Positions 30,001 through 33,000 of a DNA stretch of 64,000 bases are shown here, one piece after another. The position numbers are program-made. Position 1 is the stretch's first letter. Each line of letters begins with the position of its first letter. The stretch lies in assembly GCF_902652985.1 (NCBI RefSeq), contig NC_047022.1, positions 22,754,001-22,818,000 of the forward strand, written 5' to 3'. Source of the stretch: Pecten maximus (lineage: Eukaryota).

Positions 30001-33000
30001 TTTTTTTTTCTTAATATGACGCGACATGCTTCTGAACATTATTTATAGTTTAGCACAGAAATTCATGCAGTTTTATGACACATTTAAGAGTAGTTTATTA
30101 TTTAATGAAACAATCCAAATATCTTGAGACAACGAAGGAAAGTAACCATGGAAATGATATGTTCTGCAGTAGTTGGGTTGAACATCTTGCACATTGTAGT
30201 GGATTTTTTTTGAACTATATTTTAACATTTTTTGAAGACAGTGCTTTCGTCTATATCTGGTTAACTATGTATGTACTACGTAAACATGAAATACTAATTG
30301 AATTAACCTGAATTTTACGCTTCAGTGATTTGTTCAAGATAATTATAATGGTGACAGACGTTCGAATTCAGAAATATTTTTCATTTTTTGTTTTGTTTCA
30401 TTATGTGAAATACTAACATGTGGAGCTAAATTGATGGTGCTTTCAGAAATTAGCATGATATCCATGCAGTACTCGATTAGGTATTGTGTATTATGATTAA
30501 ACTAGAAGAAACGTCCTGATATTTTTTTATTGATATCAACATCAATATCATATGAAGTGCCGTCTCCATTTCAGAAGAAACCCCACAATGAACACCTACA
30601 TCTGTCTGGCTTCATGCCTTTTGGTGGCCGTAAGCGCTGCAGGTAAATCGTGCAATACAGCAAACCGAACCTAATATCATCTTTTTAACATTATTTGAAA
30701 CATATTCTTATATCAATGAATTACTAGTAACTCACTTTGAAGAATTCATGGATTATCTTTAAGACTTAGCGATTGTAAATGTCAATGCACAAATATTTTT
30801 GACAGTACAAATAACATATATGACTGTGTTGCTCGAACTGTACGGCGGAGAGTTCTCATCTAGAATTGGCTATGTACCCATGTATACTATACTTATCTGT
30901 AAGTTTACCAACACTCCGTATCCTGAGCTGATTGTCAAAACGGAAGTGATTTTGGGATCTTTTGTTTTTCTCGGGTTTGTGGTTAAGAATTATGTACAGA
31001 CATTATGTATACCTACATGACATATAAGTTTATTGTACCTGTGTAATCTAATACGTGTATCTTTGACAGGTTATGGAAGTGGATCCGGAAATGGATTTGG
31101 TAATGGCGGCGGAAATGGATTCGGAAACGGAAACGGTTACGGAAACGGCAATGGCGCCGGAAATGGAGGATCTGGATTTGGACGTGAGTGTGAATTGAAT
31201 AGATTGCAGAAGTGAATAATATGTTTTGTGAAGAATAACATATCGTAAGATCGATAAACTAGTATATATATTTAAAGATATGTTTATGTTAGTGAATGCT
31301 TCAGCCGATATTATAAGTAACAGAATTTGCATATCACACTTGAAGCTACCTGGGTATCTAACAAGATGTATGGTATCTATATTATATTATATTTATTGTA
31401 TTAATATATATTAATCTATATTTTGTTTATGAGAATTTAGATTTACCCTGATCGGATTGAATTTTGAAGTTGAATTGAAGTTTAAAACAAGTTTTTTGTA
31501 CAAATTATCAAAAAATATCAACGCTAATTTTGTTCTTTTATTTCAGGATATAGAAGAGCAGGTGGGTATCAACGATTTTCATGTCGTTTGTTTCCTTTTG
31601 TCGATTGAAATTAGGTTTTCCCTATATGTAATTATAGATATGATATCATTATGTGTCAAAATCAAGAACCTTCTGATCGAAGTTTGTACTTAGAATTAAC
31701 AAATGACTCCACTGAAATGAAGGTTATAGTAGCATATTACTGTTGAAACTATTGTTCAATGATACATACGATATCAGCTCATTTATCTACTATCAATATA
31801 AATGTTTACCCTAGGATACGGAGGTGGTGCCGGAAGTATGGGCGGAGGATTTGGTGGCTCTGGAATGGGAGGAAAAGGTGGATTCGGAGGAATGAACGGC
31901 GGCGGATTCGGAGGAATGAACGGCGGTGGAATGGGAGGAATAAACGGCGGTGGAATGGGAGGAATGAACGGCGGTGGAATGGGAGGAATGAACGGCGGTG
32001 GAATGGGAGGCAAAGGAGGATTCGGAGGGATGAACGGCGGTGGATTCGGAGGAATGAACGGAGGCGGATTCGGAGGAATGAACGGCGGTGGAATGGGAAG
32101 CAAAGGAGGATTCGGAGGAATGAACGGCGGTGGATTCGGAGGAATGAACGGAGGCGGATTCGGAGGAATGGGCGGTGGAATGGGAGGTGGAATGGGCGGT
32201 GGAAAAGGTAGTTACATAATTGTCGGTTTTTTATTATCCACGTTTGGCGTTTCTACCGGTTCTATTATATGAAATAGTTATGATATTATTTAATTATACT
32301 ATTTTTAATAATACTTCGATATTATATTATTCATGATGATCAATTGCAGCTTTACGTGCTTTGATTATTTTGTAAATGATAAAACGCACATATTATACTT
32401 GACTTGTGTATTGAATTCTAACCAGGTATGCCTTGTTTTACTTCCAGGATATTAGATGACCTGCTTGTCCCTTTGCTATTTTACATAATCATAATGTAGA
32501 TACAAATAAAATATTTAAATATTCCATTTTCTTGTTTGTATATGTTTATTTTTATCGAACATAGAGGAATCTTTATTACCGTATGTTCGAGTACAACAAA
32601 TTAAAAATACAGTGAAACGTATCATGAACAACTTGATAATTCGATGTCCCTATGCAATTTAGCTCCTAGTACAATAGGCGAGGATTGCTCTAGAGTGTTC
32701 TCTGACGTTTTTTATTGACGGTAATTCCATTTCCATCTTAACTTCCATCTCAATGTCGCTGCTTATCTGACTTGGAGAAGTTGAAATTATCAGGGAAGAA
32801 AACGCATTGTCATTCTTTGACCTTTTCCTCGCGAGCGATTTAACATTGGTGTTGACTTGTTCAGTTTCTTTGTCCCAGGATATTGTGGGCGAGGATGGTG
32901 ATGGACAATCATGTAAAGCCAGCAAGTAAATGCTTTCTTTTCTTTTAAATAAAAAGTGTCGTTTTGTGAGTTGTTATTCATAAGTATCCCTGCTTCAACG

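What the first reader, a model, noticed from the sequence alone, without database searches (positions are those of the whole stretch)
30588..32455. All-phase-1 exon cassette design allows a splice-controlled processing switch
Seen: every coding intron in all six genes is phase 1 and every internal exon length is a multiple of 3 (96/12/678; 465; 114/15/393; 114/15/348; 114/15/387; 108/21/270). Inference: skipping exons 3+4 gives a B-type abductin exactly; skipping only the microexon gives an uncleavable Gly-Asn/abductin fusion (..FG-R-YGGG); skipping only exon 3 leaves GYRRA without the P4 Arg. One gene could thus make cleavable, uncleavable and short forms. B may be a genomic fixation of the skipped form.
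Basis: partly seen in the sequence, partly recalled or inferred. Interest (0 to 1): 0.65.

Follow-up and report, generated by a model that had tools for sequence, protein, structure and literature searches.

The report
Scallop abductin genes, all phase-1 introns
This is one of six neighbouring genes for abductin, the rubber of the scallop hinge; its exons can indeed be dropped without breaking the reading frame, but that follows from its glycine-rich coding sequence and nothing here shows the cell uses it as a switch.

Summary
The window holds six abductin-type genes (A, B on the minus strand; C-F in tandem on the plus strand). All 21 of 21 coding introns are phase 1 with GT-AG ends.

The uniform phase is not evidence of design:
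- The two statements are one fact, because equal phases force lengths that are multiples of 3.
- The paralogues share only four intron positions.
- Inside these GGN-rich exons, 156 of 158 AG|G proto-splice sites are phase 1.

Gene C (30588-32455) reads as a prepro-abductin with five coding parts:
- a signal peptide;
- a 38-residue Gly/Asn pro-region;
- a 15-nt microexon completing an R-Y-R-R site;
- the elastomer exon;
- a final Gly-Tyr.

B is exactly the "two exons missing" architecture, and parsimony says B lost them.

Whether any skipping occurs could not be tested. There are no transcripts, and no other mollusc sequences in the libraries. Sequence hints point both ways. B's intron holds no exon remnant, but the control shows that test has no power.

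Most likely reading: constitutive splicing followed by convertase cleavage. A regulated switch remains possible, about 0.1.

The parts
29424..29435 (+). TATA-box motif CTGTATAAATAG of gene C
   Evidence: 6 matches in the window against 0.70 expected. Five lie 0.86-1.19 kb upstream of the ATGs of B, C, D, E and F. Sequence read.
29455..29503 (+). Inferred non-coding first exon of gene C (start approximate), ending at donor CCG|GTGAGT. The 5'UTR intron is 29504-30574.
   Evidence: sequence; the block 29183-29502 is 87% identical to 61289-61609 upstream of F, and the similarity stops at the donor. No transcript evidence.
30575..30642 (+). Exon holding 13 nt of 5'UTR and the signal peptide (ATG at 30588; 18 codons plus 1 base). 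Followed by a phase-1 intron.
   Evidence: Tyr4, Cys6 and Cys10 match the description of the published abductin N-terminus (PMC13052691, passages).
31070..31183 (+). Gly/Asn-rich pro-region exon, 114 nt, phase 1-1. Its last base C starts the P4 Arg codon.
   Evidence: C vs F: 104 of 108 aligned bases identical while the flanking introns are about 50-58% identical.
31547..31561 (+). 15-nt microexon (Tyr-Arg-Arg-Ala) completing the R-Y-R-R convertase-type site, phase 1-1.
   Evidence: Identical in C, D and E; 14 of 15 plus a 6-nt insert in F. A has a 12-nt equivalent giving R-Y-K-R. It has the strongest pyrimidine tract of each gene, 13-14 of 16.
31815..32207 (+). Abductin elastomer exon, 393 nt, phase 1-1. 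Gly/Met/Phe/Asn repeats with Lys about every 30 residues.
   Evidence: 24-nt and 90-nt repeat units.
32448..32455 (+). Last coding piece (completes Gly, then Tyr, then TAG). AATAAA at 32505-32510.
9539..12101 (-). Gene A, a Met-rich paralogue with the same five-part coding layout (58/96/12/678/14 nt) and an R-Y-K-R site.
23114..24601 (-). Gene B, classical-type abductin without a pro-region or microexon (55/465/8 nt). Its single upstream coding intron is 23996-24546.
41841..43650 (+). Gene D, a tandem copy of C (55/114/15/348/8 nt).
52332..54190 (+). Gene E, a tandem copy of C (55/114/15/387/8 nt).
62390..63845 (+). Gene F, a more diverged copy (61/108/21/270 nt). Its last exon lies beyond the window end.

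Best explanation
The interval is the coding part of one member (C) of a six-gene tandem family of abductin genes in a scallop-type bivalve genome.

Proposed mechanism, with shown and inferred steps marked:
- The gene is most likely spliced with all exons included (inferred). It gives a 194-residue prepro-abductin.
- The signal peptide is removed on entry to the ER (inferred).
- The uncharged 38-residue Gly/Asn pro-region travels with the protein (inferred).
- A furin-type proprotein convertase cuts after R-Y-R-R (inferred). Half of this site is carried by the 15-nt microexon (shown).
- The released chain is about 134 residues with a Tyr near each end and regularly spaced Lys (shown from sequence). 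Its N-terminus is almost the same as the one gene B gets directly from signal peptidase (shown).
- The pro-region probably keeps the sticky elastomer soluble or unreactive until secretion (inferred).

The uniform phase 1 is a by-product of two things. First, introns sit in or next to GGN glycine codons, where AG|G sites are almost only phase 1. Second, all copies descend from one ancestral gene.

Its demonstrated consequence is evolutionary. Exons and repeat blocks can be lost, gained or resized in frame, as in gene B (pro-region and microexon lost) and in the 270-393 nt elastomer exons. Diversity of product is supplied by paralogues rather than, as far as can be seen, by splicing.
For: - Exon structure, phases and split codons.
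- An R-X-K/R-R motif is present in 5 of 5 pro-type genes. The Arg codon is split at the same place (C|GN) even in A, whose flanking domains are otherwise unalignable with C.
- Exons, not introns, are conserved between C and F. The only conserved blocks are the four exons plus about 50 nt after the microexon.
- 156 of 158 AG|G and 31 of 31 AG|GT sites in the coding exons are phase 1.
- Literature: phase-1 proto-splice sites correspond to glycine codons, and phase-1 introns are in excess at signal-peptide cleavage sites (PMC1626468, abstract and passages).
- The microexon has the strongest acceptor tract in every gene (13-14 of 16 pyrimidines, against 8-13 elsewhere) and a donor matching 7-8 of 9 positions. 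This fits an exon built to be included.
- B, C, D, E and F share the promoter motif, so the short and long forms already exist as co-regulated genes.
- B is nearer to C than A is. The signal-peptide exon is 79% identical between B and C, and A is not detected. A and C-F both have the pro-region, so B's two-exon loss is the parsimonious reading.
Against: - No transcript, protein or cross-species data could be obtained, so constitutive inclusion and cleavage are inferred only.
- The Gly/Asn exon has the weakest signals: acceptor 8-9 of 16 pyrimidines, donor exon side GAC. That would tolerate skipping.
- Between C and F the three upstream coding exons show fewer synonymous differences than the elastomer exon: 4 of 56 same-residue codons against 14 of 56, Fisher p = 0.019.
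- The first 50 nt after the microexon are 72% identical, against about 55% elsewhere in the introns. Both features are also seen around regulated exons.
- Tropoelastin, with the same 1:1 phase design, is extensively alternatively spliced (PMC12554196, passages).
- The intron between the Gly/Asn exon and the microexon splits an Arg codon at GAC|G, not an AG|G site. The proto-splice argument does not cover that intron.
Confidence: 0.6

Rival explanations
1. Regulated exon skipping in one gene makes a cleavable pro-form, an uncleavable Gly/Asn-abductin fusion (microexon skipped) and a short B-like form (both exons skipped). This would tune when or whether the elastomer is released.
For: - Every combination is in frame, and the junction codons are as stated.
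- Lower synonymous divergence in the upstream exons: 4 of 56 against 14 of 56, p = 0.019.
- A conserved roughly 50-nt stretch after the microexon in C vs F.
- Weak splice signals on the Gly/Asn exon.
- Precedent in tropoelastin (PMC12554196).
Against: - No transcript evidence of any kind.
- Frame compatibility is forced by composition and ancestry.
- The microexon has the best acceptor of each gene.
- The cleavage motif is kept in 5 of 5 pro-type genes.
- The short form exists as its own gene with the same promoter motif.
- The synonymous-site contrast rests on 18 differences. It could also come from repeat-register noise or patchy gene conversion.
Confidence: 0.12
2. The uniform phase reflects origin by internal duplication. 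The downstream exons descend from one ancestral 'acceptor + Gly/Tyr-start' unit, so they all inherited one phase-1 intron. This is a statement about origin and is compatible with the best explanation.
For: - In B-F, the first whole codon of 17 of 17 downstream coding exons is Tyr. In A it is 2 of 4, with Tyr second or third in the other two.
- Exon heads share G-[A/T/G]-T-A-[T/C].
- The Gly/Asn exon and the elastomer exon share 16 of their first 24 in-frame bases. Only 138 of 5000 codon shuffles reach this.
- It would also explain the phase-1 intron in the Arg codon.
Against: - The local alignment of the two exons as wholes is no better than codon shuffles (255 of 300 shuffles reach it).
- The intron sequences show no similarity to each other.
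- Tyr at module starts could equally be functional, as cross-linking residues.
Confidence: 0.3
3. The Gly/Asn exon and microexon are not real exons. C-F would then be B-type genes with one long intron, and the apparent exons chance open frames.
For: No transcript confirms them. The exon models are from sequence alone.
Against: - Between C and F these two stretches are 96% and 93% identical, while the surrounding intron is about 50-58%.
- They are the only conserved blocks besides the other exons.
- They have GT-AG borders in the one phase that keeps the frame.
- The distant paralogue A has the same layout with the same split Arg codon.
Confidence: 0.03

Closest known systems
Classical abductin cDNA of the bay scallop (Cao, Wang and Bayley 1997). 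Known here only through two reviews, PMC9999432 and PMC13052691 (passages); the paper itself is not held.
   Same: - N-terminal 20 residues with Tyr4, Cys6, Cys10 and Tyr20, the first about 19 taken as signal peptide.
- This is followed by a Gly/Met-rich repeat domain of GGFGGMGGGX type.
- Gene B has exactly this layout, and C-E have the same first 20 residues.
   Different: - C-F and A insert a Gly/Asn pro-region and a dibasic site between the signal peptide and the elastomer domain.
- The repeat unit in C-F is 8 residues with Asn (24-nt period).
- A is far richer in Met and carries Pro.
- Lengths are 175-285 residues, against 136 reported.
Tropoelastin gene (vertebrate elastin)
   Same: - It is an elastomer gene in which all splice sites are phase 1:1, permitting cassette-like removal of exons without changing the frame (PMC12554196, passages).
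- It is Gly-rich and cross-linked through Lys.
   Different: - There is no sequence relationship: Pfam finds no family in any abductin exon.
[quoted passage not shown]
- Here there is one large elastomer exon, a tandem gene family, and no evidence of alternative splicing.
Phase-1 introns at signal-peptide cleavage sites and in glycine codons; class 1-1 modules of extracellular proteins
   Same: - The intron after the signal peptide sits one base into the Gly codon next to the predicted cleavage site.
- The literature attributes the phase-1 excess to AG|G sites in GGN codons (PMC1626468, passages).
- PMC8001218 was seen in a search listing only.
   Different: Here the rule extends to every intron of the gene, because the whole protein, not only the cleavage region, is glycine-rich.
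Secreted matrix precursors activated by furin-type convertases (general knowledge, recalled; not looked up here)
   Same: [quoted passage not shown]
   Different: The site is split over an exon border and a 12-21 nt microexon. The pro-piece is a low-complexity Gly/Asn peptide. Cleavage has not been shown.
Methionine-rich ligament protein LMP of the pearl oyster (mentioned in PMC7591529, passages)
   Same: It is a Met-rich, low-complexity, insoluble hinge-ligament protein. Gene A's 225-residue Gly/Met exon is of that style.
   Different: No sequence of LMP was available, so no comparison was made. The resemblance is by composition only.

Membership tests
Abductin | N-terminal 20 residues: Ala-rich, Tyr4, Cys6, Cys10, Tyr20 (as described in PMC13052691) | tested here: met
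   B, C, D and E have Tyr4, Cys6 and Cys10, and Tyr is the first whole codon of the next exon (position 20). F has a 2-residue insert that shifts positions. A does not fit.
Abductin | Gly/Met-rich domain built on GGFGGMGGGX-type repeats with a few Lys | tested here: met
   B carries GGFGGMGGG(K/Q)-type units. C-F carry an 8-residue GGFGGMNG variant. A is a Met/Pro-rich variant without Phe.
Abductin | Significant sequence match to a deposited abductin | not testable with these tools
   Single-exon searches returned 20 hits (E up to 10) and 18 hits (E up to 0.001). The 14 inspected are unrelated repeat proteins. No mollusc abductin appears to be reachable in the libraries.
Abductin | Made by the hinge-secreting mantle and present in the resilium | not testable with these tools
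   No expression or proteome data are available.
Furin-type proprotein convertase substrate | R-X-K/R-R motif (recalled consensus) between pro-piece and mature chain | tested here: met
   R-Y-R-R in C, D, E and F; R-Y-K-R in A (5 of 5 pro-type genes). Absent from B.
Furin-type proprotein convertase substrate | Entry into the secretory pathway (signal peptide) | tested here: inconclusive
   By inspection only: an 18-20 residue hydrophobic N-terminus ending in small residues. The reviews treat the first 19 residues of abductin as a signal peptide. No predictor was run.
Furin-type proprotein convertase substrate | Cleavage demonstrated | not testable with these tools
   Needs N-terminal sequencing or mass spectrometry of ligament protein.
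Cassette (alternatively skipped) exon | Same phase on both sides, so skipping keeps the frame | tested here: met
   16 of 16 internal coding exons.
Cassette (alternatively skipped) exon | Both inclusion and skipping junctions present in transcripts | not testable with these tools
   No RNA data. No annotated isoforms are reachable.
Cassette (alternatively skipped) exon | Extra conservation of synonymous sites and flanking intron | tested here: inconclusive
   C vs F: 4 of 56 against 14 of 56 synonymous differences, p = 0.019. 72% identity in the 50 nt after the microexon against about 55% elsewhere. Small numbers and only one informative pair.
Tropoelastin-type gene design | All exons phase 1:1 | tested here: met
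   PMC12554196.
Tropoelastin-type gene design | [quoted passage not shown] | tested here: not met
   the whole elastomer domain, Lys included, is one exon of 270-678 nt.
Tropoelastin-type gene design | Sequence homology to elastin | tested here: not met
   no Pfam family at E up to 1 for 4 of 5 exon translations. The fifth has only an 8-bit sub-threshold match to an unrelated family.

The most novel reading that the evidence does not exclude
Scallops tune their hinge rubber by splicing. Inclusion or skipping of a 15-nt microexon that carries half of a convertase site decides whether abductin is released from a Gly/Asn pro-piece, stays fused to it, or is made directly in the short form. On this reading the 1:1 phase design, shared with vertebrate tropoelastin, is a convergent solution for elastomer genes.
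Probability: 0.1. Interest if true: 0.7.

Novelty: new variant of a known kind. Interest (0 to 1): 0.4.

Why it matters
Abductin is the only natural rubber-like protein that works in compression. In the reviews read here it is known essentially from one cDNA.

This locus shows three things:
- Abductin is a tandem family with a shared promoter motif.
- Five of the six genes encode a precursor with a Gly/Asn pro-piece and a convertase-type site set on a microexon.
- Exons and repeats can be added or lost in frame.

These points give testable ideas on how a self-associating elastomer is kept inert until secretion, and natural sequence variants for biomaterial design. They also show that an elastin-like 1:1 exon design arises simply from glycine codons, which cautions against reading such designs as evidence of regulated splicing.

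None of the library searches turned up a paper on an abductin gene, pro-abductin or abductin splicing: 'abductin' as a whole word gave 31 papers, 29 of them listed and judged by title; abductin-like, abductins, pro-abductin, proabductin and abductin gene gave one review. Subscription journals and genome annotations were not searchable.

Tried and rejected
- **Exon remnants in B's intron (23996-24546).** Local alignment against 13 exon and intron pieces of C, F and A, with 100 shuffles each. The Gly/Asn exons (18 against 16.8-17.4) and the microexon (13 against 12.6) score at shuffle level. Two intron pieces scored above shuffles (C intron 2: 1 of 100 shuffles reach it; A intron 2: 0 of 100). 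On inspection these are 21-56 nt AT-rich matches. Three-frame translation shows no Gly/Asn stretch. Control: homologous introns of A vs C (4 pairs) and the last introns of B vs C also give nothing. The test therefore cannot detect an old remnant.
- **Other species' abductins or annotated isoforms.** Two word-index searches and one exhaustive HMMER search used the translation of the elastomer exon alone. They returned only unrelated Gly-rich repeat proteins. I inspected 7 of 20 and 7 of 18. HMMER's composition filters may hide true low-complexity relatives, so absence is not shown. The third word-index search was left unused.
- **Family searches.** Pfam on five single-exon translations gave nothing. 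Pfam on six other ORFs of at least 110 codons gave nothing. Rfam on the window gave nothing.
- **Whole-exon similarity of the Gly/Asn exon and the elastomer exon.** No better than codon shuffles.
- **Paper searches.** The first search was swamped by 'abducting' and was useless. The original abductin paper is not held.
- **Collections not used.** The bacterial/archaeal genome collection and the phage, plasmid and E. coli collections cannot hold this locus.
- **Joined model.** The joined coding sequence or protein was not assembled or searched. All searches and frame checks were exon by exon.
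Full report
**What is there.** The window has no N. It contains six stretches that read as Gly-rich protein, two on the minus strand (A, B) and four on the plus strand (C-F). Reading the sequence, mapping borders and computing frames exon by exon gives these coding exons:
- A: 12101-12044, 11612-11517, 11144-11133, 10745-10068, 9552-9539
- B: 24601-24547, 23995-23531, 23121-23114
- C: 30588-30642, 31070-31183, 31547-31561, 31815-32207, 32448-32455
- D: 41841-41895, 42329-42442, 42795-42809, 43063-43410, 43643-43650
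- E: 52332-52386, 52820-52933, 53297-53311, 53565-53951, 54183-54190
- F: 62390-62450, 63012-63119, 63348-63368, 63576-63845, with its last exon beyond the window end

All 21 of 21 coding introns are phase 1 with GT-AG ends.

- A TATA motif CTGTATAAATAG lies 0.86-1.19 kb upstream of the ATG of B-F. There are 6 matches in the window against 0.70 expected; one further match with one mismatch, at 25196 on the other strand, is probably chance.
- A has TGTATATAAG preceded by the same GATTTCCGT element as B.
- In C the conserved upstream block ends at a CCG|GTGAGT donor at 29503/29504. An acceptor lies 13 nt before the ATG.

**Is it more than chance?** 'All introns phase 1' and 'all internal exons multiples of 3' are one fact, not two. 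The six genes are paralogues. C, D and E are tandem copies 92-95% identical over about 4 kb, and F is an older copy. There are therefore four independent intron positions at most.

Composition matters most. The coding exons use GGA, GGC and GGT 615 times. Of 158 internal AG|G sites, 156 are phase 1 and 2 are phase 0. All 31 AG|GT sites are phase 1. The literature already attributes the phase-1 excess near signal-peptide cleavage sites to AG|G sites in glycine codons (PMC1626468, abstract and passages). An intron-bearing gene of this composition is expected to be all phase 1.

One intron is not covered by this argument. The intron between the Gly/Asn exon and the microexon splits an Arg codon at GAC|G in all five pro-type genes.

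A possible second cause is origin of the exons by internal duplication:
- In B-F the first whole codon of 17 of 17 downstream coding exons is Tyr.
- The heads of the Gly/Asn and elastomer exons share 16 of 24 bases, a value reached by 138 of 5000 codon shuffles.
- The exons as wholes align no better than shuffles.

**What the genes are.** No Pfam family matches any exon. The layout fits the published description of abductin, which I know only through two reviews (PMC9999432; PMC13052691; passages). The original paper is not held. That description is:
- then a Gly/Met-rich domain of GGFGGMGGGX repeats.

B has exactly this layout. C-E have the same first 20 residues. I infer a scallop-type bivalve genome; I did not try to identify the source, and I did not take the window for human.

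C-F and A differ from the classical form. Between the signal peptide and the elastomer domain they carry a Gly/Asn-rich exon (96-114 nt) and a microexon (12-21 nt). Together with the split Arg codon, the microexon spells R-Y-R-R (C-F) or R-Y-K-R (A), followed by Ala. That matches the furin-type convertase motif, which I quote from general knowledge.

After such a cut the chain of C would begin Ala-Gly-Tyr-Gly-Gly-Gly. This is practically the N-terminus that B obtains directly from signal peptidase. That convergence, and retention of the motif in 5 of 5 pro-type genes although A and C are otherwise unalignable, are my main reasons to read the Gly/Asn piece as a removable pro-region.

The exons are real. 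Between C and F identity is as follows:

| Region | Identity |
|---|---|
| Signal exon | 54 of 55 |
| Gly/Asn exon | 104 of 108 |
| Microexon | 14 of 15 |
| Introns | about 50-58% |

BLAST finds no conserved block other than the exons and about 50 nt after the microexon.

**The skipping arithmetic.** From the head and tail bases:
- Signal-exon tail G plus elastomer-exon head GA gives Gly. Dropping both small exons reproduces B's junction and B's first ten mature residues.
- Gly/Asn-exon tail C plus head GA gives Arg. Dropping only the microexon leaves one Arg and no dibasic site. In A the same junction would give Pro.
- Tail G plus microexon head GA gives Gly at P4. Dropping only the Gly/Asn exon keeps Arg-Arg but loses the P4 Arg.

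All searches and frame checks were exon by exon.

**Does skipping happen?** This could not be tested. There are no transcripts. The protein libraries gave no mollusc abductin or isoform, possibly because composition filters hide such sequences.

Hints for regulation:
- C vs F synonymous differences are 4 of 56 same-residue codons in the three upstream exons, against 14 of 56 in the alignable ends of the elastomer exon (Fisher p = 0.019).
- The 50 nt after the microexon are 72% identical.
- The Gly/Asn exon has the weakest signals: acceptor 8-9 of 16 pyrimidines, donor exon side GAC.
- Tropoelastin, with the same 1:1 design, is heavily alternatively spliced (PMC12554196, passages).

Hints against regulation:
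- The microexon has the strongest acceptor tract in every gene (13-14 of 16) and a donor matching 7-8 of 9 positions of the recalled consensus.
- The flanking introns are short, 207-387 nt.
- The cleavage motif is conserved.
- The family already provides the short form (B), a Met-rich form (A) and length variants (270-393 nt elastomer exons) as separate genes with one promoter motif.

I weigh this as about 0.6 for essentially constitutive inclusion with proteolytic processing, and about 0.1 for a regulated switch. The remainder covers non-functional low-level skipping or errors in my model.

**Gene B.** B's signal exon is 79% identical to C's, while A's is not detected. B and C share their first mature residues and the C-terminal Lys-Gly-Tyr end. 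The tree is therefore most simply A, then B, then F, then C/D/E. Since A and C-F both carry the pro-region and microexon at the same positions and phases, B most likely lost them.

B keeps an intron at the junction. The loss was therefore a genomic deletion from intron to intron, harmless because both exons are 1-1. It was not a copy of a spliced message, so it needs no skipped isoform.

The two scores above shuffles are AT-rich chance matches. Homologous introns of A, B and C are equally unalignable, so the negative result carries no weight. Gene conversion between B and C at their 5' ends would weaken the parsimony argument.

**Comparison and verdict.** The locus works like tropoelastin in one respect only, the 1:1 phases of a Gly-rich elastomer gene. 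It is not a member of that family: there is no homology and no alternation of exon types. It is a member of the abductin family by layout and repeat type, in a pro-protein variant. The library searches (one listed titles read, passages read in four of the abductin papers) did not turn up such a variant.

The inference that the design 'allows' skipping is true but trivial given the composition. The claim of a splice-controlled switch remains an untested possibility.

Still unchecked: RNA data, other bivalve genomes and their annotations, subscription literature and paper supplements.

Noticed in passing
window 25473-25484 (-), 29424-29435, 40792-40803, 51138-51149, 61531-61542 (+); A near 14040 (-): All six genes share a promoter layout. 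A GA(C/T)TTCCGT element lies about 10 nt before a TATA box: CTGTATAAATAG in B-F, TGTATATAAG in A. A short non-coding exon and a 5'UTR intron of about 0.8-1.9 kb follow. This suggests co-regulation of the whole cluster.
   Followed up: partly
first whole codon of every downstream coding exon, e.g. 31072, 31549, 31817, 32450 in gene C: In B-F, 17 of 17 downstream coding exons begin with a split Gly/Arg codon followed by Tyr. Four of the five Tyr of mature C sit at exon starts. This could mark cross-linking residues at module borders, or an origin of the exons by duplication.
   Followed up: partly
C vs F: 30588-31561 against 31815-32207: Synonymous divergence is about three times lower in the signal, Gly/Asn and microexon exons (4 of 56) than in the elastomer exon (14 of 56; p = 0.019), although the introns between them are unalignable. 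The cause is unknown: splicing signals, codon constraint or patchy conversion.
   Followed up: partly
window 9539-12101 (-), gene A: A is a strongly Met-rich paralogue with GMGGMGMGGMPGMGMGGK-type repeats and no Phe, and the same exon plan. By composition it recalls the Met-rich ligament protein reported from the pearl oyster (PMC7591529). No sequence comparison was possible.
   Followed up: no
window 69-469, 7376-8305, 19479-22819, 26494-28172: Four satellite arrays lie between the genes: a 49-nt unit x8, a 27-nt unit x34 (open in several frames but without any gene signal), a 41-nt unit x81, and a 12-nt GGTAAAGTAGTA unit x142 that causes the extreme GC skew at 26-28 kb.
   Followed up: partly
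window 31877-32187, 43109-43390, 53626-53931, 63623-63837: The elastomer exons of C-F differ in length (393, 348, 387, 270 nt) by whole 24-nt and 90-nt repeat units. The copies vary in frame by repeat gain and loss.
   Followed up: partly
proteins P0002-P0006, P0010, P0014: Proteins from environmental data sets, with lipoprotein-like N-termini and a Cys-containing C-terminal motif, carry GGMNGGGMGG repeats almost identical to abductin repeats. This is apparently convergent low complexity, not homology.
   Followed up: no
window 31562-31611 and 63369-63419: A T-rich element about 30-50 nt downstream of the microexon is the only intronic stretch conserved between C and F (72%). It is a candidate splicing enhancer for the microexon and is not present in A.
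   Followed up: no
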